From the NCBI RefSeq assembly GCF_009914755.1, contig NC_060935.1: a stretch of DNA of 64,000 nt; one strand, given 5' to 3'. The stretch comes from the human T2T-CHM13v2.0 reference genome, Homo sapiens. This document shows positions 1 to 64,000 of the stretch, piece by piece; within the stretch, counting starts at the first letter, position 1; the number at the start of each line of letters is the position of its first letter. Below the pieces are notes generated by a model, which made no database searches, was not told the DNA's origin, and saw only the letters and a list, made by a program, of their open reading frames with translations. The translations under genes were made by a program, and so were the position numbers.

Positions 1-1004
1 CCCTGGGCAGCATTTGCTGAGCTGGGAGATTAGGAGGCATCATTTGGTGCCCAGTACTCACATCCCCCAATTGTTCAGAGGCAGTGTAAGGACGATGCAG
101 GCAAGACAGTCTTCAGAGTCAGATGCCAAGTCCTCATGTGACCTTAGAAAAGAAGTGTGACTTCCTGTAAAACAGGAACAAACAGGACTTTTTAGCTGTT
201 AACTTAAAAAAATTACAACACATGCTTGTTATGGAAAATTAAAAGTGTAAAGAGGTTATATAAGGTAAAAAATACCTTCTTCATCCAGCTGTGCTTCCCA
301 GAGATAACCACTGTAAATAGGAGGTGTGTCACCTTCCAGACATGTTTCTATGTGTGCACACATGGACCCAGGCACATAGGCACATACTACTTTCTTTTAC
401 AAAAATATAATAGTGCCAGGCCATATATACTTTTGCCTATGGAGAAGCTGATTCCCAGAGAAAAGAAGTGATGTGCACAAGGTCACACAAAGACAGATTG
501 GAGCAGAGATGGCCCTGACCCTGTGTCTCTTGCCTGTATTTCCAGACTCAGACCGCCTCCTACCCTGCCTCACTCTCTTGGGCTGTGTGCATTCTAATTG
601 AGCACCATAGGGGATACAAAGGCAGACAATTATTCTGGCAGATAGTCAAGGGCAATAGTCAAAATATTTACTACTCTGCAAGTTGCAGCCCCAGCCAATC
701 ATAACTAACATTGGCTGCAAATGACCTTCCTGAGGTTACTGGCTAAATATTGGCCCTGCATGTAGGAGTCTCATTTCACACCCTACATATCTCTCCACGG
801 ATGGCTGGGAAGGAATCCATGAATGAATAAATGAGGATGCAAAGTGATCTGAAATAATATCGCAAAGGAAGAAAAACTTCTTTCGATAGAAGTGTAATGT
901 TATCAACTGCAGTGTTATCTGCCTATATATTTTTACAATCAGAGCCCTGTGAAAGGAGAAGAGGCAATAATAGAAAATGAAGGAAGTAGAAAGGAGATGT
1001 TTAT

Positions 1005-1125
1005 TGGAGTTCAACAGAACTGGACTCGAGATATGGCTCTGCGCTTAGTGGCTCTCAGACCCTGGGCAAGTGACTTAATCTCCTTGACTTTTTTTTTTTT
1101 TTCCTGTAAACATCTGTGAATGTGA
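1005..1125 (+). mobile_element. MIR SINE fragment
   Basis: Core-like 'accctgggcaagtgacttaatctc...catctgtgaatg'. Confidence 0.6.
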
Positions 1126-1258
1126 GGAGGAGAGGCACAAAAAGTAACTTAACCATGATTATACTAATTAAGGGACAGATAGGCTGAGGGGTCTGAGGGA
1201 CTTTTAGTCTAGTGGGCTTATAATTTAATGTCAGGGGTAGCCCAGGGATCCTGAATTT

Positions 1259-2185
1259 TGCCAACAGAAAAATCATGAGATCTATGCAGATTTGGAAACA
1301 GGACTTTATTTCTCATAAAGGGTTATAGCCTGCCAATGGTCATCCTGACAGGCTGAGAAGTGTACCTTCAACAGAGACCGAAAGGCAGTACTTTGAAGAA
1401 GGAGGGGTTGAGGCAGGAGCTTTATGCTACATAGGTTGGCTAAATATACATATTCAACAGGTTACAGGAGAAGCTATGAATATTCACCAAGTGGTTTCTG
1501 ATGCATGCATACTGAATAAACATGCATGCTACAAATGATCTATGTTCATATTGGAGAGGGTACTTAACATTTAAATTTATTACAATGAGGCTATCTATAT
1601 TTCAGAAGATAAAACAGGGACATAAATGTTCTCAAGTGCAAAGCCTCTATAAAACCGACCAGAACCAGTCCATAGTCGGTGGTCTTTTACCAGGAAAGTT
1701 ACTGAAATCTCTTTCTTGTCTAATCAAAGCTGTAGTTATGGCTTGTGGAACAGGAGGTCGGTTAGTCAGCACATGGTGGTGAATGAGCTGCAGTTATTTT
1801 AATATTGCTTTCCTTGAGGCCAGTGCTTGTTGAGCTGCTTAAGAAAGAAAAACCTTGTGGCAGTTAAAACAAAGCTTATTCTTTAAGTGTAGGGGTGCGT
1901 GACTTAACCTTTGCCTGACATGGGCGTAGGTCCTGTTTATAATTGGATATCTTACTGCCACAAAGAGTCTGTTCTGTCAGTCATATGATCTCTATTTTAA
2001 CATTCATGCTGGTCAGTTGGTGTGTCTGTATACAAAAGGGAGAGGATATAACGAGGCTTGTGTGATCTCTTGTCTCCTTATGGCCAGGAACTCCATTTTT
2101 AAGGTTTCTCTGAGGTCTCCTTGGCCAAGAGGGAGTCTGTTCAATTGGTTGGGGTGGGTGCTTAAGGTTTAAATTTTAGTTCTCA
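1259..2185 (-). mobile_element. MER4-group ERV1 solo LTR (MER49/MER4D-like)
   Basis: TG...CA termini; reverse-complement homolog of the LTR at 30870-32113. Confidence 0.75.
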
Positions 2186-2649
2186 ATCCCATATAGGGTC
2201 TTGAGACCTTTCTCATCCTCGATTCAATCTGAGGGCAATTCTGAGTTAAATCTCCAAATAACTTCTATTCTCTCCTTGTGCACCTCATCTCTACCCCAAC
2301 ATACACAGGAGAAGATCACCTGAACAATAAACTTGTAGGTTTAAAGAAACTACTAGGCACCTGGCAATCCCTTGCTTCCTGCAATCTTCCTGTCTTTCTT
2401 GAGATACTTTTTCTTAAGGATTTCTCATGGGTCTGCCTCACTTGACAATGGATATATATACTCTCAGTATTTAGCGTGGAGAAGACCCAGACTCATGAAA
2501 GAGATGCAGAGAACTAGCAGGGAGAGACAGAGACAGAGACAGAGAAAAGCCATGACTAGCATCACTAAATTAACCATGTCCTCGAGACTCATAATTCATA
2601 CCATCGTTATATGTTCTCTAGGTAATTTCTGCAACCTTCCAACAAGTGT

Positions 2650-3229
2650 TCCCATCTCCTGAAGGACAGCTGGGATCATGGCAAACTCTGAGACAAAAAC
2701 CTGCAGTGGCTCGTTGTTTATAGCATTGGCTCCCAATTAAGCCTGTTAAAAATAGAGGTTTGGGGTTTCAATGTATGGAACTTTAGAAGACGAGTTCTGA
2801 GAACTAAAACTATCTACGCCCTACAGAGCTTCTACATCAACGTGACATTACTATAACACTGTCTTCACTAGCATAACTTTACCATTCCAGTGACCGTTAC
2901 ATGGAAAAATGGCTTGATTATTCATTATAGGAATTTCCCAAAATATCCATCAACTCTTCAATGAAAAGTATCAACAGTTTTTACCTTTGAATCTCTTGCC
3001 TTGCCTTGCTTTTCCCACCAATCTTAAACTTCCATGTTGTGATTTTTGCCCTTTTCAAATCAAGACCTCCCCACTCTCTCCACGGAGGGAAGTGGCTTAA
3101 ATGAAACTTAAATTCTCAATAAATTCTAACCTTGCTTTCTGAGATACTGCCAAATCTCTGCTGAAATGGTGTTTTCCCTATCTCATCAACAGTTTGTATT
3201 GGTGATATTTGCGGAAATGGCATTTGACA
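2650..3229 (+). mobile_element. Old ERV-class LTR-like remnant
   Basis: LTR-like 3' end ending '...gcatttgaca'; family not resolved. Confidence 0.35.
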
Positions 3230-3419
3230 GTCCCTAGAAAATTTTGTAGCACAGTTAGATTTGAGAATTCCTTGACAAAATTAAGTCCTAATTCTTGAGT
3301 TTAATGTTCAAGGTCGCCAGCAGTCTGACTGTTGCCTTGGTTTCAAATCAAATGTCCAATTAATCTCTTTTCCCTCTCTTTATTACACTTTATGCTTTCA
3401 AAACCTACACTATATTTAT

Positions 3420-3904
3420 TTTTTGTTTTCTAATCTTATTTTTTACTGATGCTTTGTGTGTGTGATAACTTCATATATTCAAATAAGCTTTGAAGATCAA
3501 ATTGGTGCAATTGGGATATCCATTACCTTAAATATTTATTTATGCTAGAAACATTTGAATTATTCTTTTCTCACTATTTTGAAATAAAGAATATATTATT
3601 GTATAGTCACCTCTCTGATGTATCAAGCACTGGGTCTTATTTCTTCTATCAAACTGTATATTTGTACCCATTAATCAACCTCTCTTCATTTTCCCTCCCT
3701 GCTTGTCTTCCCAACATCTGCTAAACACCAATCCACTCCCTATCATCATGAGATCCACTTTTTTTAGCTCCCACATATGAATAAGAATATGTGGTATTTA
3801 TCTTTCTATGTTTGACTTATTTCACTTAACATAATGACCTCTAGTTCCATTCGTGTGGCTGCAAATGACAGAATTTTATTCTTTTTCATAGATGAATAAT
3901 ATTC

Positions 3905-3961
<57 letters not shown>

Positions 3962-4031
3962 ACATTTTCTTTATCCATTCATCCATTGATGGGAACTTAG
4001 GTTGATTCCATATTTTTGCTATTGTGAATAG
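3420..4031 (-). mobile_element. L1MA-type 3' end containing (TA)n at 3910-3959
   Basis: 'tttagctcccacatatgaataagaatatgtgg...ttcacttaacataatgacctctagttccat'. Confidence 0.85.
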
Positions 4032-5889
4032 CACGGATCTCTAGGGCAGGAGCAAAATGCTGCCAGTCTCTTTGCTAAAGCACAGCAAGAATCACCTTTG
4101 TTCCAATTCCCAGTAAGTTCCTCATTTCCATCTGAGACCGTCTCAGCCTGGACTTTGTTGTTTATATCACTATCAGCATTTTGGTCAAAATCATTCAACA
4201 AGCCTCTAGGAAGTTCCAAACTTTCCCACATCTTCCTATCTTCTTCTGAGCTCTCCAAACTGTTTCAATCTCTTCCTGTTACCCAGTTCCAAAGTTGCTT
4301 TCACATTTTTGGGTATCTTAATAGCAGTACTCCACTTTACCAGTACCAATTTACTGTATTAGTCCATTTTCATACTGCTATGAAGAAATACCAGAGACTG
4401 GGTAATTTATAAAGAAAAAGGGGCTTAATAGACTCACAGTTCCACGTGGCTGGGGAGAAATTCAAGCTGGCTTATTCACTATCATGAGACTTATTCACTA
4501 TCATGAGAACAGCACAGGAAAAACCTGACCCCATAATTTAGTTACTTCTCACTGGGTCCCTCCCATGACACATGGGGATTATGGGAACTACAATTCAAGA
4601 TGAGACTTGGGTGGGGACACAGCCAAACCATATCATTCCACTGCTGACCCCTTCCAAATCTCATGTCCTCACATTTCAAAACCAATCATGCCTTCTCAAC
4701 AGTCCCCCGAAGTCTTAACTCATTTCAGCATTGACTCAAAAGTCCACAATCCAGTCTCATCTGAGACAAGGCAAGTCCCTTCCACTTATGAGCCTGTAAA
4801 ATCAAAAGCAAGTCAGTTACTTTCTAGATACAGTGGGGTACAGGCATTGGGTAAATACACCCATTCCAAATGGGAGAAACTGGACAAAACAAAGGGGCCA
4901 CAGGCCTCATGCAATTTTGAAATCCAATAGGAGAGTCATTGAAGTTCCAAAATGATCTCCTTTGACTACATGTCTCACATCCAGGTTGCACTGATGTAAG
5001 AAATAGGCTCCCATGGTCTTGGGCAGCTCCACCTCTGTGGTTTTGCAGGGTATAGCCCCTGATCCTGGCTGCTTTTACAGGCTGGCATGGAGTGTCTGCA
5101 GCTTTTCCAGGTGCACAGCGCAAGCTGTTAGTGGATCTACCATTCTGGGATCTGGAGAAGGATGGTGGTCCTCTTCTCACAGGTCTACTAGGCAGTACTC
5201 CAGTAGAGACTCTGTGTGGGGCCTCCAACCCCACATTTACATTCTGCACTGCCCCAGTAGAGGTTCTCCATGAGGGCTCTGCCCCTGTAGCACACCTCTG
5301 CCTGGACATCCAGGCATTTTCATACATCCTCTGAAATCTAGGGAGAGGTTCCCAAACCTCAGTTTTTAACTTCTGTGCACCCACAGGGCCAACACCATAT
5401 GTAAGCTGCCAAGGCTTGGGGCTTGCACCCTCTGAAGCAATGGCCAGAGCTGTACATTGGTTTTTTTAGCCACAGATGGGACACAGAGCACCAAGTCCTG
5501 AGACTGTACAAAGCAGAAAGGCCCAGGGCTTAGCACACAAGACCATTTTTTCCTCCTAGCTCTCCAGGCCTGTGATGGGAGGGGCTGCCATGAAGACTTC
5601 TGACATACCCTGGAGGCATTTTCCCCATTGTCTTGGCAATTAACATTTGGATCCTTGATACTTATGCAAATTTGCAAATTTCTGCAGCCAGCTTGAATTT
5701 CTCCTCAGAAAATGAGTTTTTCTTTTCTATCACATTGTCAGGCTGTAAATTTCCCAAACTTTTATGCTCAGCTTCCCTTTAAGACACAAGTTTCAATTTC
5801 AAACCATGTCTCTGTGAATGAATAAAACTCAATGCTTTTAAGAATACCCAAGTCACCTCTTGAATGCTTTGCTGCTTAGAAATTTCTTC
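4032..5889 (-). mobile_element. THE1(C/D) MaLR element, circularly permuted: internal 4032-4354, single LTR 4355-4635, internal 4636-5889
   Basis: LTR 'tgtattagtccattttcatactgctatgaag...agccaaaccatatca' has THE1 internal sequence on both sides. ORFs 4824..5384 and 4019..4258 are decayed THE1-int peptides. Confidence 0.9.
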
Positions 5890-7680
5890 TTTCTCTGGTG
5901 CCTCCTTGATTAGCTTAATAATCAAAGCTCTGATTTCTTTTTCTGGCAATTCAGAGATTTCTTCTTGGTTTGGATCCATTGCTGGTGTGCTAGTGTTATA
6001 TTTTGGGGGTGTTAAAGTACTTTGCTTTTTCATATTACCAGAATTGTTTTTCTGATTCCTTCTTATTTTGGTAGACTGTGTCAGAGGAATGCTATGGGGC
6101 TCAAGGATACTCTTCAGATTCTTTTGTCCCAAGGGGGTGATCCCTTGAAGCCCTTCCACTAGGGATGGGGCTTCCTGAGAGGTGGACTGCAGTGATTGTT
6201 ATTGTTATTCTGGACCTAGCCACCTAGAAGAGCTAATGGGCTTCATGCTGGTACTGGGGAGTGTCTGCAACTTGTCCTGTGATGTGATCTGTCTTCAGGT
6301 CTCTCAGCTGTGGATACCAGCACCTGCTCTGGTGGAGGTAGCTGGGGAGTGAGGTGGACTCTGTGTGGGACCTTGATTATAGTTTTATTTAGTGCACTGT
6401 TTGTTTGAAATGCTAGTTAATGTAGCAGTGAAGTTGTCACATGGACAGACTCAGGACCTCTGGTTAGCCAGGATGTTACAGGTGATAGAATTAGCTGTTG
6501 TTTTCTCCTTTCTTAGAGCAGGGTTGTTCTTTTTTGAGTTTCTGTAATGGCTTGAGTTTGTTGGCCTCCAACCAGGAGGTGGTGCTTTCAAGAGAGCTTC
6601 AGCTGCAGTGGTATAGGGAGAATACAAGCTTGCCCTAAGGTATTCAGATTTCTTGGGTGATGGGTGGGGCCACAGAGCTCCCAAAAGATTATGACTTTTG
6701 TCTTTAGCTACCATAGTGGTTAGTGAAAGACCATCAGGTGGGGGCAGTGTTAGGCCTGTCTGAGCTCAGACTCTCTTTGGCTGGGGATTGCTGCAGCTGC
6801 TGTGGGGGATGGAGGTGTGGTTCTCAGGCCAATGGGGTTATGTTCCCAGGGGGATTATGGCTGCCTCTGCTGCATCATACAGGTCACCAGGGAAATGGGG
6901 GAAAGCCAGCAGTGACAGGCCTCACACTGCTTACATGCAGCCAAAAAGGCCAGTCTCACTCCCACCATGCCCTACCAAGAGCACCAAGTTTATATCCAGG
7001 CAGCCGGTGAGCAGGGCTGAGATCTTGCCCCAGGCTACAAGCCTCCCCACTGAGAAAGCAGATGTGGCTTTCATGCTTTACCCCTTCCCACCTGCTGTGG
7101 CTTCTGTACTCATATCTGCACTTCCTATTCACCCCCTATCCCCTAGATTCTGCCCAGGAAAATTCATGTTCGGCTGAAATTATTTCAAAGTTCAGCTGGA
7201 AGTTTCCTTCTCACTGTGGTTCTTCCCCAATTCCACTGGCAGCTGTCCCCAAGGACCCCTGTAAGATAAAGTCAGAAATGGCTTCCCTGGGTTTCCTTGG
7301 GGGTCAGGAGTGTGTATACAGCTCTTTCCGCTGCTTCTTCTACTTTGATATTTCACTTGGCTCTCTAAATTTGTTTCAGCACTAGATAAAGTTAAACTCT
7401 TCTTCCACGATCTGGATTTTCAGGTTCCCCAGTGAGGATATGTGTTCAGAGGTAGACTCTCCCCCTCTCACACTCTGGGCATTCACAATTTTTTAGCTGT
7501 CTCATGGTGTTTGCAGCAGCAAGCTACTTCTTTCAAAGGGTCAGTGAATTCTTTTGGTTTTTCTACTATGCTTCTGTGGTAGTTCTTGAAGCAACTGTTC
7601 ACAATGTGAGTTTCCACATGCTGTTCTGTCTGTCTAAGTGGGAGCTACAAGTTATTCCTGCCTCCTATCTGCCATTTTTT
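5890..7680 (-). mobile_element. L1PB-type 5'UTR and ORF1 start
   Basis: ORF 5779..6159 contains L1 ORF1 N-terminus (NQKNNSGNM...PAMDPNQEEISELPEKE). Confidence 0.8.
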
Positions 7681-9564
7681 TTTTCCAATTTGAGTTGGGA
7701 ATGGTCTTTTAAATGTGTTGTTGAATTTGGTTTGCTGGTATTTTTTCATATCTAAATTCATGAGAGATGTTGGCCTGCAGTGGTCTTTTTGTTGTGTTCT
7801 TGTCTGATTTTGGTATCAAGGTAATGCTGGTCTCATAGAATGAGTTTGGAAGTATTCTTTTATCTGTAATTTTTTGAATAGTTTGAGTGAAATGGGTATT
7901 ACCTTTCTTTAAATGTTTGGTAGAATGCAGCAGTGAAGATACTAGGTCCTGGACTTTTCTTTGATGGGAGACTTTTTATTATGGCTTTGACCTTGTTGCT
8001 TGTTACTTGTTGGTAAGTTTAGGTTTTCCATTTCTTCATGATTCAGTCTTGGTAGGTGTATGCATCCATGAATCTATCCATTTATTTTAGGTGTGCCAAA
8101 GTTTTGATGTGTATTTGTTCATAATAGTCTGTAATGATTTTTTTTTTGTATTTCTGTGGTCTCAGTGGTTATGTCTCCTTTTTATGTTTGATTTTCTTTA
8201 TTGGGGGTCTTCTTTCTTTTTTCTTGGTTAGTATAGCTAAAGGTTTGTTTATTTTGTTTACCTTTTCAAAAAACCTACTTTCTGTTTCATTAATCATCTG
8301 GATTTATTTAGTTTCAATTTTATTTATTTCTACTCCGATTTTTATTATTTCTTTCCTTCTGCTAATTTTGGGTTTCATTTGTTCTTGCTTTTCTAGTTTC
8401 TTGAGGTTCATTATTAGATTGTTTATTTGAATTCTTTCTATTTTTTGTTGTAGATATTTGTTGCTATAAAATTCCCTCTTAGTACTGCTTTTGCTGTATC
8501 CCATAGATTTGGGTATGTTGTGTTTCTATTTTCATTTGTTTAAAGATATTTTAAAATTTCTTTCTTAATGTTTTTATTGACCTATTTGTTATTCAGGAAT
8601 ATGTTTAATTTCCATGTGTTTGTGAATTCTTCAAGGTTTCTCTTGTTATTGATTCTAGTGTTATCTCATTGTGGTCAGAAAAGATATTTTGTATGATTTC
8701 TACATTTTTTAATTTGTTGATACTTATTTTGTGGCTTCAGATATGGCCTATCCTAGAGAATGTTGCATGTGCTGATGATAATAATGTGCATTTTGCAGCA
8801 TTTGGGTGAAATGTTCTGTAAATATCAGGCCTACCTATTTGGTCTAGTATGCACTTTAAATTCATTGATTATTTGTTGATTTTCTCTTTGGGTGATCTGT
8901 ACATTACTGAGAGTGGGGTGTTAAACTCCTCTACTATTATTGTATTGCCACTTATCTCTTATTTTAGAATTATTAGTGTTTGATTTAAATAGTCATGAGT
9001 GCCTATGTTGAGTGCATACATATTTATAATTGTTATATTCTCTTGCTGGGTTGACCTGTTTATCATTATATAGTGGTCTTCTTTGTCTCTTATTAGTCTT
9101 TGACTTGCAGTCTATTTTATCTGACATACATATAGCTACTCATATTCTTTTTTGGTTTCCAGATGCATGAAATATCTTTTTCCACTCCTTCACTTTTAGT
9201 CTATGTGAGTCTTTATAGGTGATGTGGGTTTCTTGTAGGCAGCGTATAGTTGGTTCTATTTCTTTATTCATTTAGCTACAGTCTGCCTTTTGATTGGAGA
9301 ATTGAGCCCATTTACATTTAATGTTATTATTGATAAGTAAGGACTTTCTATGGCCTTTTTTCAGGTTTCTTTTCTGGTTGTTTTGAGACTCCTCTCTTCC
9401 TGTTTTCTTTCTTTATTGCTTTCCTTTGTGAGTAAGTGATTTTCTCTGGTTGTATGTTTTAATTTGTTGCTTTCTATTTTTAGTAAATTTATTATAGGTA
9501 TTTGCATGTGGTTACATGAGGCTCACAAAGAATGTCTTATAGATAGATATAACAAGTTATTTTG

Positions 9565-9880
<316 letters not shown>

Positions 9881-10169
9881 TTATTTTAGATTACCAGGAA
9901 AAAAAAAAACAAATAAAAAATGAAAGAAAACCTTTACACTTTAACTCCATTGCCACCACATTTTGACTTTGTGTTGTCTCAGTTTACATGTTTTTTTTAT
10001 TTTCCATCTCTTAACTGGTTAACAATGTTAGCTATATCAATAACTATTACTGTTTTTGATAGATTTGTCTTTTGGCTTCATATTAGACTTATGAGTGGAT
10101 TACACACCACAGTTACAGTAGGAGAGTATTCTGGGTTTGTTTACATACTTATTTTTAGCTGTGAGTTCT

Positions 10170-12651: not shown

Positions 12652-13114
12652 CCACTTTCAAGGCCTTTCTCAAAAGCCACTCCTTTAGTAGGCGTGTCAC
12701 TATCCCACTACTGTCCCATTCCACAGCTGGAAGTGGGAATCACATAGTTCCCTAGTGTAGTCAAACAGAAGATATTTAGCTTCCTGAGTGGAGCCTTCCA
12801 ACTTGTCTTTGCCTCCCTAAAGTGTATTTCATAAATTCAGCATGTTTTATAATCAGTGGGCCTTTTTAGGTGAGACCAGCAATTTAGGAAAAACTGTTAA
12901 GGGGTAGAAAAATTTGTGGTATACAATTACCCCCAGCAGATCAAATGTGCTTCCTACAGAGATAAAACTACTATCCAGAGAGGGGATCATAGCTTTTGAT
13001 TTTGAAAGTTAGCCAGTTTACAGCTTATCTACTAGAGACAGGGATAACTACTATATTAAGGAAATATAGAGGTATAACCCCAGGAGCATGTATAAAGAAA
13101 AACGTGGAGGGAGA

Positions 13115-13488
13115 TGATATGGTTTGGCTCTGTGTCCCCACCCAAATCTCATCTCAAATTGTAATCCTCAGGTGTTGAGGGAGGCACCTAGCGGGAAGTG
13201 ATTGGACTATGGGGGCGGTTTCCCCCATGCTGTTCTCATGATAGTGAGTGAATTCTTACAACATCTGGTGGTTCTAAAAAGTGTTTAGCAGTTTCCCCCA
13301 CACTCTTCTGTCTCTCTCCCGACACCATGTAAGATGTGCCTTGCTTCCCCTTTACCTTTCGCCATGAGTGTAAGTTTCCTGAGGCCTCCTCAGCCATGCA
13401 GAAGTGTGAGTCAATTAAATCTCTTTTCTTCATCAATTACCTGGTCTCATGTAGTATCTTTATAGCAGTGTGAGAATGGACTGATACA
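13115..13488 (+). mobile_element. THE1D/MSTA-type solo LTR
   Basis: 'tgatatggtttggctctgtgtccccacccaaatctcatc...gaatggactgataca'. Confidence 0.9.
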
Positions 13489-13659
13489 GAGGACATGACA
13501 TTCGAACTTCTTGGTTTATAGTGCAGGCTTTTCACTAAATTGTTACCCATGACCATACTTTCTGCCTGTTTTAAAAGCCAATAAAATACAAGTCTTCTTT
13601 AGTGGTGAGCAGTTGATTTTATTCTGGAAGCCTGGAACTCCTCGCTGTGTCAGCATCAC

Positions 13660-62117: not shown

Positions 62118-64000
<1,883 letters not shown>

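What the first reader, a model, noticed from the sequence alone, without database searches (positions are those of the whole stretch)
4032..5889. Circularly permuted THE1 element: likely a one-LTR circle captured at a break
Seen: one LTR in the middle with internal sequence on both sides, no terminal LTRs and no TSD. From the recalled THE1-int consensus, the right end (...GCTTAGAAATTTCTTC, 5889) and left start (CACGGATCTCTAGGGCAGG, 4032) are only about 40 bp apart, so the insert is almost exactly one circle opened once. The flanks are mismatched (L1MA 3' end on the left, L1PB ORF1 start on the right), implying a multi-kb deletion at the site. Established: one-LTR circles arise from LTR-LTR recombination or as reverse-transcription by-products. 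Inference: integrase-independent germline reinsertion of extrachromosomal circular DNA.
Basis: partly seen in the sequence, partly recalled or inferred. Interest (0 to 1): 0.72.

Follow-up and report, generated by a model that had tools for sequence, protein, structure and literature searches.

The report
Circularly permuted THE1 filling a deletion
One whole unit of an ancient human LTR retroelement lies in rotated order (inner part, LTR, inner part) where about 7 kb of two nested L1 elements is missing, which is best explained by a free circular copy having been stitched into a chromosome break instead of being inserted by its normal enzyme.

Summary
Window 4032-5889 (minus strand) reads THE1 internal 5' part (4032-4354), one LTR (4355-4635), then internal 3' part (4636-5889). 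Both LTR/internal borders are canonical. In 8 of 8 measurable full-length copies the two outer ends lie 39-40 bp apart. The piece is therefore one unit (364-bp LTR + 1617-bp internal) opened once.

It has no outer LTRs and no target duplication. No other THE1 lies from 10 kb upstream of the window to the window's end. Both junctions are end-joining type, with 0 and 1-2 bp of microhomology.

The piece replaces about 5 kb of a full-length younger L1 and 2-3 kb of the older L1 that the younger one had entered.

The LTR carries a third scar. About 115 bp are lost and 32 nt inserted, 13 of them an inverted copy of the element's own internal sequence.

Best reading (0.62): a unit-length extrachromosomal THE1 circle captured by end joining. 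One-LTR versus end-joined origin stays open. Rivals are break-primed reverse transcription, a doubly trimmed tandem dimer (three such dimers exist, each keeping an outer LTR) and templated copying.

It is a rare natural instance of known processes. Orthologous primate loci could not be checked.

The parts
3461..4031 (-). 3' end (3' UTR and end of ORF2) of an older L1, cut off at 4031
   Evidence: The 39 other scored genomic hits are 76-80% identical. All 12 reference copies fetched by these hits match 3461/3495 to 3916-4031. The reference L1s continue past 4031 with sequence absent here.
4032..4354 (-). THE1 internal region, 5' part (323 bp). It abuts the LTR at the canonical internal/LTR border. 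Junction J1 (4031|4032) with the old L1 is blunt.
   Evidence: 16 copies span the internal/LTR border as here. 0 nt of microhomology at J1.
4355..4635 (-). Single THE1 LTR of 281 bp (canonical about 364 bp), flanked by internal sequence on both sides
   Evidence: Alignment to 7 LTRs from 5 full-length copies. 19 copies span the LTR/internal border as here.
4458..4489 (.). Filler at the LTR lesion (J2), standing in for about 115 bp of lost LTR. 4458-4470 is an inverted copy of internal sequence. 4471-4489 is a tandem copy of 4490-4508.
   Evidence: (D2, I9). 0 of 300 shuffles give such an inverted 23-mer. Only the locus itself among 40 scored places spans it.
5686..5708 (.). Internal stretch whose complement is the template of the 13-nt filler. 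It is entered through the 8-nt word at 4450-4457.
   Evidence: (I9: 23 nt, 96% complementary).
4636..5889 (-). THE1 internal region, 3' part (1254 bp). Junction J3 (5889|5890) with the younger L1 has 1-2 nt of possible microhomology.
5890..7684 (-). 5' UTR plus the first 48 codons of a reading frame of a younger L1. The frame has its ATG at 6033-6031 and is open to the junction. The L1's 5' terminus is the family's usual one.
   Evidence: 77-82% to L019-L022; 35 of 39 other hits end at window 7676-7688; 48 open codons. That this frame is ORF1 is recalled, not returned by a tool.
7685..9499 (-). The older L1 resumes (ORF2 region, by position) with 2.0-3.3 kb of it missing relative to five reference copies
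   Evidence: L031, L033, L034, L037 and L039 match both 3461-4031 and 7684/7712-9499 colinearly on one strand. None of the 12 matches 5889-7683.

Best explanation
The older L1 was entered by a full-length younger L1. Later, in the germline, this stretch broke and lost about 7 kb: the younger L1 from codon 49 of its first reading frame to its tail, plus 2-3 kb of the older L1.

The gap was closed by end joining, with a free unit-length THE1 DNA ligated in between. That DNA was a circle carrying one LTR-equivalent plus the whole internal region. It was opened once, 323 bp into the internal region, and about 40 bp were lost at the opening.

No integrase was involved. The joints lie inside the internal region, there are no LTR ends at the borders, and there is no target duplication.

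The circle was either a one-LTR by-product of reverse transcription or LTR-LTR recombination, or a linear cDNA closed by microhomology-mediated end joining after its LTR ends were chewed back. In the second case the scar in the LTR (about 115 bp lost, two-step templated filler) is the closing joint.

Shown: the anatomy, the unit length, the three joint types and the missing L1 sequence. Inferred: the circle, the order of events and the repair pathway.
For: 1. Unit-length rotation. The outer ends map 39-40 bp apart in 8 of 8 measurable full-length copies. Also 323 + 1254 + 40 = 1617, the internal length of copy L004 (boundaries, used). Two independent random end points would fall within 40 bp of each other in about 5% of cases (my estimate, 2 x 40 / 1617).

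2. Both LTR/internal borders are canonical (16 and 19 spanning copies). The middle is therefore a genuine LTR shared by two internal parts.

3. No outer LTR or further THE1 sequence lies from 10 kb upstream of the window to window position 64000.

4. J1 is blunt and J3 has 1-2 nt of overlap. There is no poly-A and no duplication, so these are end-joining joints, not integrase or L1 joints.

5. The site lacks sequence that was there before.
- The younger L1 has the family's usual 5' end at 7676-7688 (35 of 39 hits), so it arrived as a full-length insertion. It now stops 48 codons into its first frame.
- Near-complete relatives have about 5 kb more.
- The older L1 lacks 2.0-3.3 kb relative to five copies.

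6. Both junctions are single-copy among the places scored (the locus itself is 1 of 40 in each). The chimera was therefore not spread as a unit.

7. The third joint, inside the LTR, has the multi-step templated filler typical of microhomology-mediated end joining.

8. Background from papers (passages read):
[quoted passage not shown] They depend on alternative end-joining factors (10.1101/2022.09.25.509424; PMC12951756).
- MaLR and MuERV-L sequences were 33% and 20% of the DNA captured at Cas9 breaks in mouse zygotes, with truncated ends, no duplications and short microhomologies (PMC4516963).
Against: - No outgroup or empty site was seen. The one-event history (deletion plus capture) is an inference.
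- THE1 tandem dimers (LTR-internal-LTR-internal...) do exist. All 3 genuine internal-LTR-internal places found by two low-sensitivity pattern scans keep an outer LTR. A substrate for the trimmed-dimer rival is therefore real.
- A circle is not the only source of a unit-length permutation (see the reverse-transcription rival).
- The LTR scar may equally be a later, unrelated mutation. Its template word is common among THE1 copies (identical in 2 of 9 copies), so it need not come from the same molecule.
- No donor or sister copy was found. The best other copies are only 89% identical.
- All genome searches scored only 40 of 604 to 10062 candidates.
Confidence: 0.62

Rival explanations
1. Break-primed reverse transcription. 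The 3' end of the plus strand at 4031 primed cDNA synthesis on one THE1 RNA, 323 nt into its internal region. Synthesis ran to the RNA's 5' end and transferred through the R repeat to the 3' end of the same RNA, which rebuilds one LTR. It then came back to where the template had already been degraded. The cDNA end was trimmed by about 40 nt and joined to the other break end.
For: This route gives a unit-length permutation with one LTR and no circle. All three elements lie on the same strand, which is compatible with it. Reverse-transcription-dependent break repair with MaLR sequences is documented, and a 'direct RT' variant was proposed (PMC4516963, passages).
Against: J1, which would be the priming joint, has 0 nt of complementarity. 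The 13-nt filler in the LTR has the polarity of a cDNA or DNA template, not of the RNA. This route predicts no gap at the return point, so the 40-nt loss needs extra trimming.
Confidence: 0.13
2. Trimmed tandem dimer. A THE1 inserted normally between the two L1 break points. It became LTR-internal-LTR-internal-LTR by unequal LTR exchange or multimeric cDNA. Two separate large deletions then removed both outer parts together with the neighbouring L1 sequence.
For: Tandem THE1 arrays exist in this genome. They are at contig 9 near 92.875 Mb, contig 1 near 49.636 Mb and contig 9 near 91.108 Mb, and each has an outer LTR on at least one side.
Against: This needs an insertion, a dimerisation and two independent deletions of more than about 0.7 and 1.7 kb. 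Their end points would have to fall 40 bp apart in unit coordinates, about a 5% coincidence by my estimate. All 3 real dimers examined still keep an outer LTR, whereas this locus has none.
Confidence: 0.1
3. Templated repair. A broken end copied from a chromosomal THE1 elsewhere by synthesis-dependent or microhomology-mediated template switching. It jumped between that element's two LTRs and then returned to the other break end.
For: The LTR scar shows that template switching on THE1 sequence did occur at some time.
Against: Start and stop points of copying would be arbitrary, so the unit length is again about a 5% coincidence. A copied tract of 1.86 kb with blunt or 1-2-nt joints is not the usual picture for such events (this last point is recalled, not tested).
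Confidence: 0.05
4. Assembly artefact or chance resemblance.
For: None found.
Against: All parts are old and diverged: the best other copies are 80-89% identical. Homology to canonical copies is continuous across both LTR borders, and the region is not satellite-like.
Confidence: 0.01

Closest known systems
Capture of retroelement cDNA at double-strand breaks: MaLR and MuERV-L at Cas9 breaks in mouse zygotes (PMC4516963, passages read); Ty1 cDNA at HO breaks in yeast (recalled, not looked up)
   Same: - A member of the same superfamily (MaLR) is ligated into a break.
- No integrase hallmarks.
- Ends lie inside the element.
- No target duplication.
- 0 to a few nt of microhomology.
- Sequence is lost at the site.
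   Different: The reported captures are truncated fragments, for example 950 bp of internal sequence plus part of an LTR. Here a whole unit is present in rotated order, which points to a circular or circle-equivalent source. It is also an old, inherited event rather than an induced one.
One-LTR and two-LTR circles of LTR retroelements and retroviruses (10.1101/2022.09.25.509424; PMC12951756; passages read)
   Same: Same content: one LTR plus the full internal region. The scar in the LTR is of the alternative end-joining type, the pathway those papers tie to circle formation.
   Different: Those circles are described as extrachromosomal end products that rarely reintegrate. Here the product sits in a chromosome, the LTR is not intact, and which circle type it was cannot be told.
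Extrachromosomal circular THE-1 DNA in human cells (Misra et al. 1989, Nucleic Acids Res 17:8327; seen only as a reference-list entry in PMC5633380; the paper itself is not held)
   Same: By its title, circles containing this very family exist and arise by recombination.
   Different: The content of that paper was not read. It concerns free circles in cultured cells, not reinsertion.
Germline relocation through circular intermediates, recognised by circular permutation (colour-sidedness in cattle; recalled, not looked up)
   Same: The same diagnostic logic applies: an inserted segment whose ends are adjacent in the source.
   Different: That case is a segment of hundreds of kb of unique DNA. 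This is a 2-kb retroelement unit that may never have been chromosomal.
Tandem THE1 dimers in this genome (contig 9 near 92.875 Mb, L055; contig 1 near 49.636 Mb; contig 9 near 91.108 Mb)
   Same: An LTR flanked on both sides by internal sequence with canonical borders.
   Different: All three keep an outer LTR on at least one side. This locus has none, and its ends meet in unit coordinates.

Membership tests
   78-82% identity over 1.4 kb to 9 copies, and 86-89% over 190 bp in the other 39 scored hits; copy L004 has two 86%-identical LTRs of about 362-364 bp that start 1981 bp apart.
Canonical integrase-made provirus | Two terminal LTRs with element ends at the host junctions, plus a short target duplication | tested here: not met
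   One central LTR only. The host junctions lie inside the internal region. There is no duplication at 4031|4032 and 5889|5890.
Insertion derived from a unit-length circle | The two outer ends are adjacent in the linear map of the source, and the total length is one unit minus a small loss | tested here: met
   Ends lie 39-40 bp apart in 8 of 8 measurable copies. 1858 = 1981 - 40 - 83.
Insertion derived from a unit-length circle | Pre-insertion (empty or undeleted) site in a related lineage, followed directly by the present structure | not testable with these tools
   No primate genome other than the window's own is held.
One-LTR circle specifically | A single, uninterrupted LTR between the two internal parts | tested here: inconclusive
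   The LTR lacks about 115 bp and has a 32-nt templated filler. This could be a later lesion in a single LTR, or the joint of two chewed-back LTR ends.
Tandem dimer (LTR-internal-LTR-internal-LTR) | Outer LTRs, or at least continuation of the internal region beyond one unit | tested here: not met
   No further THE1 sequence lies from 10 kb upstream of the window to window position 64000. The three other internal-LTR-internal loci do have an outer LTR.
L1-mediated (target-primed) insertion or L1 chimera | Poly-A at the 3' joint, target duplication, and possibly further copies of the chimera | tested here: not met
   There is no A-run at J1. Both junctions are single-copy among the 40 scored places each.

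The most novel reading that the evidence does not exclude
This would be a sequence fossil showing two things.

1. The circular by-products of LTR-retroelement replication, usually treated as dead ends, can re-enter the primate germline by plain end joining. They would then serve as patch DNA for a multi-kb deletion.

2. The scar inside the LTR would be the original closing joint of that circle, made by microhomology-mediated, polymerase-theta-type synthesis. If so, both the birth and the reinsertion of one circle are recorded in one locus.
Probability: 0.25. Interest if true: 0.6.

Novelty: new member of a known kind. Interest (0 to 1): 0.45.

Why it matters
Circles of LTR retroelements are abundant in germ cells, and capture of MaLR cDNA at breaks has been produced in the laboratory. 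What is missing is evidence that whole circles have been fixed in a genome by this route.

A unit-length, rotated THE1 that replaces deleted L1 sequence is such a candidate. It also supplies a simple signature for a genome-wide census: internal-LTR-internal, no outer LTR, ends meeting in unit coordinates.

As a single old locus without outgroup data it is an anecdote, not a new mechanism. I found no description of a permuted genomic LTR element in four full-text searches. Those searches cover open-access papers only.

Tried and rejected
- **Internal polypurine tract at the opening point.** Such a tract would favour a reverse-transcription discontinuity. Seven 12-nt windows with at least 11 purines exist in the internal region of copy L004, and none lies at the break. 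Dropped.
- **Donor or sister copy with the LTR lesion.** Only the locus itself among 40 scored places (604 candidates) spans it.
- **Nearby solo LTR as donor.** The two other LTRs near the locus (13106-13489, and 9.3-9.7 kb upstream of the window) are only 71-75% identical to THE1 LTRs and lie in the opposite orientation. Not donors.
- **Spread of the L1-THE1 chimera as a mobile unit.** Both junctions are single-copy among the scored places.
- **Both flanks as one L1.** Rejected. The 12 copies closest to the left flank never match 5889-7683, while 5 of them match 7684-9499 colinearly.
- **Twin-priming L1 inversion as the cause.** The orientations do not fit, because both L1 parts lie on the same strand.
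- **Whole-genome census of internal-LTR-internal.**
  - A BLAST-type query found none among the 39 other scored places, out of 10062 candidates.
  - Two exact-word patterns gave 4 places, of which 3 are real tandem dimers and 1 is a 6-nt chance match.
  - Sensitivity is low, about a tenth by my estimate, so counts are lower bounds. For two of the three dimers only four 451-bp samples could be read.
- **Pfam naming of the L1 parts.** Five short open frames in 7648-9522 gave no family. A longer decayed frame was not accepted because of stop codons. The L1 and ORF1 labels therefore rest on recall, on the shared 5' terminus and on the 48-codon open frame.
- **Misra et al. 1989.** Not held.
- **Supplementary files.** None were consulted.

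Full report
**What is there**

All of the following lies on the minus strand.
- 4032-4354 is the 5' part of the THE1 internal region.
- 4355-4635 is one LTR.
- 4636-5889 is the 3' part of the internal region.

No tool returns repeat names. What the tools show is membership of dispersed families and their architecture.

A 190-bp probe from the right end found 40 scored places out of 2063 candidates. The 39 other places were 86-89% identical. Nine of them, fetched with flanks (L002-L010), are LTR-internal-LTR elements. In copy L004 two LTRs of about 362-364 bp, 86% identical, start 1981 bp apart.

**Test of the permutation**

- In 8 of the 9 copies both ends of the insert could be placed. Window 5889/5890 and window 4032 fall 39-40 bp apart. 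The ninth copy gave no match to that part.
- The alignment shows the 39-40 nt that all 8 copies have and this locus lacks.
- Both borders of the central LTR are the family's normal borders. 16 copies span the internal/LTR border and 19 span the LTR/internal border in the same way.
- The internal region of L004 is 1617 bp, which equals 323 + 1254 + 40. The boundaries were worked out from the coordinates and used.
- The insert is therefore one unit, opened once, and 40 bp short at the opening.
- The LTR is 83 bp short for a separate reason, given under "A third joint inside the LTR".

**Surroundings**

The layout is as follows.

Left flank:
- 3461-4031 is the 3' end of an older L1 on the minus strand. 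The best other copies are 80% identical.
- Twelve copies fetched as its closest relatives all match it.
- Five of them (L031, L033, L034, L037, L039) also match window 7684/7712-9499 colinearly on the same strand, leaving 2.0-3.3 kb of their sequence unrepresented here.
- Two more (L030, L032) match that stretch in inverted order.
- None of the 12 matches 5889-7683.

Right flank:
- 5890-7684 belongs to a different, younger L1, 77-82% identical to L019-L022. Its best 5'-UTR relatives are 85-86% identical.
- 35 of 39 other hits end at window 7676-7688. This L1 therefore has the family's usual 5' terminus and arrived as a full-length insertion into the older L1.
- It now ends at 5890, 48 codons after an ATG at 6033-6031 in an open frame. 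I take this to be the start of ORF1 by recall.
- Near-complete relatives (L020, L022) carry about 5 kb more between that point and their 3' ends.

So roughly 7 kb that must once have been here is gone, and 1858 bp of THE1 stands in its place.

The rank of best identities is older L1 80%, younger L1 85-86%, THE1 89%. This fits the nesting order. The ranking is an inference from a few hits.

**The joints**

- J1 (4031|4032) is blunt. The older L1 copies continue with different letters, and the THE1 copies are preceded by different letters.
- J3 (5889|5890) allows 1-2 nt of overlap.
- There is no A-run, no duplication and no LTR terminus at either joint. These are end-joining joints.
- Each junction is single-copy among the 40 places scored, out of 3489 and 2569 candidates.
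- No other THE1 LTR or internal sequence lies between 10 kb upstream of the window and position 64000. Only two other LTRs matching THE1 LTRs are there, 71-75% identical to them and in the other orientation.

**A third joint inside the LTR**

- After 4457 about 115 bp of LTR are missing and 32 nt stand in their place.
- 4458-4470 is the reverse complement of internal sequence at about 5689-5701. It is entered through an 8-nt word (4450-4457) that recurs, with one mismatch, at 5701-5708.
- 4471-4489 repeats 4490-4508 (D2 and I9).
- An inverted 23-mer with at most one mismatch occurred in 0 of 300 shuffles of the element.
- No other scored genomic place spans this lesion: the locus itself was 1 of 40, out of 604 candidates.
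- This is the pattern of repeated microhomology-primed synthesis seen in alternative end joining. That characterisation is recalled.
- The scar may be the joint that closed a linear two-LTR cDNA after both LTR ends were resected. Equally it may be a later, unrelated lesion in a single LTR.
- The template word is identical in 2 of 9 other copies, so it does not prove a template from the same molecule.

**Mechanism**

The unit length is the key fact. Any history with two independent end points needs a coincidence of about 5% (2 x 40 / 1617, my estimate). That applies to a trimmed tandem dimer and to copying from a chromosomal element. The dimer route additionally needs an insertion, a dimerisation and two large deletions.

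A circle opened once predicts the unit length directly. So does one route without a circle: cDNA synthesis primed from the break on a single RNA, with an R-to-R transfer. I rate that route lower for three reasons.
- The would-be priming joint has no complementarity.
- The filler has DNA polarity.
- No gap is expected at the return point.

An internal polypurine tract at the opening point was looked for and not found.

**Comparison loci**

- A BLAST-type query across internal-LTR-internal found no other such place among the 39 other scored places, out of 10062 candidates.
- Two exact-word patterns that require internal sequence on both sides of one LTR gave four places.
- One is a 6-nt chance match.
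- Three are real, and each has an outer LTR at the expected distance on at least one side. They are tandem dimers.
- Tandem dimers therefore exist and look different from this locus. How many doubly truncated ones exist is unknown.

**Literature**

Passages read:
[quoted passage not shown] They depend on polymerase theta, XRCC1, ligase 3 and Fen1. Integration is the minority outcome (10.1101/2022.09.25.509424; PMC12951756).
- At Cas9 breaks in mouse zygotes, 33% of captured sequences were MaLR and 20% were MuERV-L. They had truncated ends, no duplications and short microhomologies (PMC4516963).

Seen only as a reference entry:
- Circular extrachromosomal THE-1 DNA in human cells is on record, but I saw only a reference-list entry and the paper is not held.

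Not found:
- Four full-text searches for permuted or reintegrated LTR-element circles found no genomic case.
- Two hits containing 'circularly permuted' were opened and were about other things.

**Verdict**

The locus is a rare natural member of a known class, extrachromosomal retroelement DNA used as filler in break repair. It is distinguished by being a complete rotated unit and by carrying a possible closing scar.

Noticed in passing
G000 contig 9: 92874690-92877700 (L055 1693-4701): A THE1 tandem dimer. It reads: truncated LTR (about the first 160 bp, with a simple-sequence insert), then the last 276 bp of the internal region, a full LTR, a full internal region and another LTR. The first unit is internally deleted.
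   Followed up: partly
G000 contig 1 near 49635602-49637905 and contig 9 near 91105983-91109878: Two more THE1 places with internal sequence on both sides of one LTR. Both have an outer LTR on one side. On the other side one shows no THE1 at the expected distance. The other shows internal sequence that stops about 235 bp before its end. Only four 451-bp samples were read.
   Followed up: partly
window 13106-13489, and 9300-9737 bp upstream of the window (L023 264-701): Two LTRs matching THE1 LTRs in the same orientation, 22.8 kb apart. They are 71-75% identical to THE1 LTRs and about 76% identical to each other over 267 bp. They bracket the whole L1/THE1 cluster.
   Followed up: partly
window 3905-3960: A (TA)n microsatellite of about 55 bp inside the older L1's 3' part.
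   Followed up: no
window 6403-6551: About 150 bp in the younger L1's 5' UTR with no counterpart in copy L021, whose alignment jumps from 6402 to 6552. Whether it is a subfamily-specific segment or a small insertion was not settled.
   Followed up: no
window 5665-5682: A short tandem duplication (an 8-9-nt unit, twice) in the THE1 internal region, absent from the 9 comparison copies.
   Followed up: no
L021 (G000 contig 12: 96767041-96770282) and L019 (contig 3: 151215659-151218335): Among the L1 copies used as rulers, one has a 3.3-kb internal deletion. Another has its 3' 2.2 kb inverted next to the 5' part, a twin-priming-like layout.
   Followed up: no
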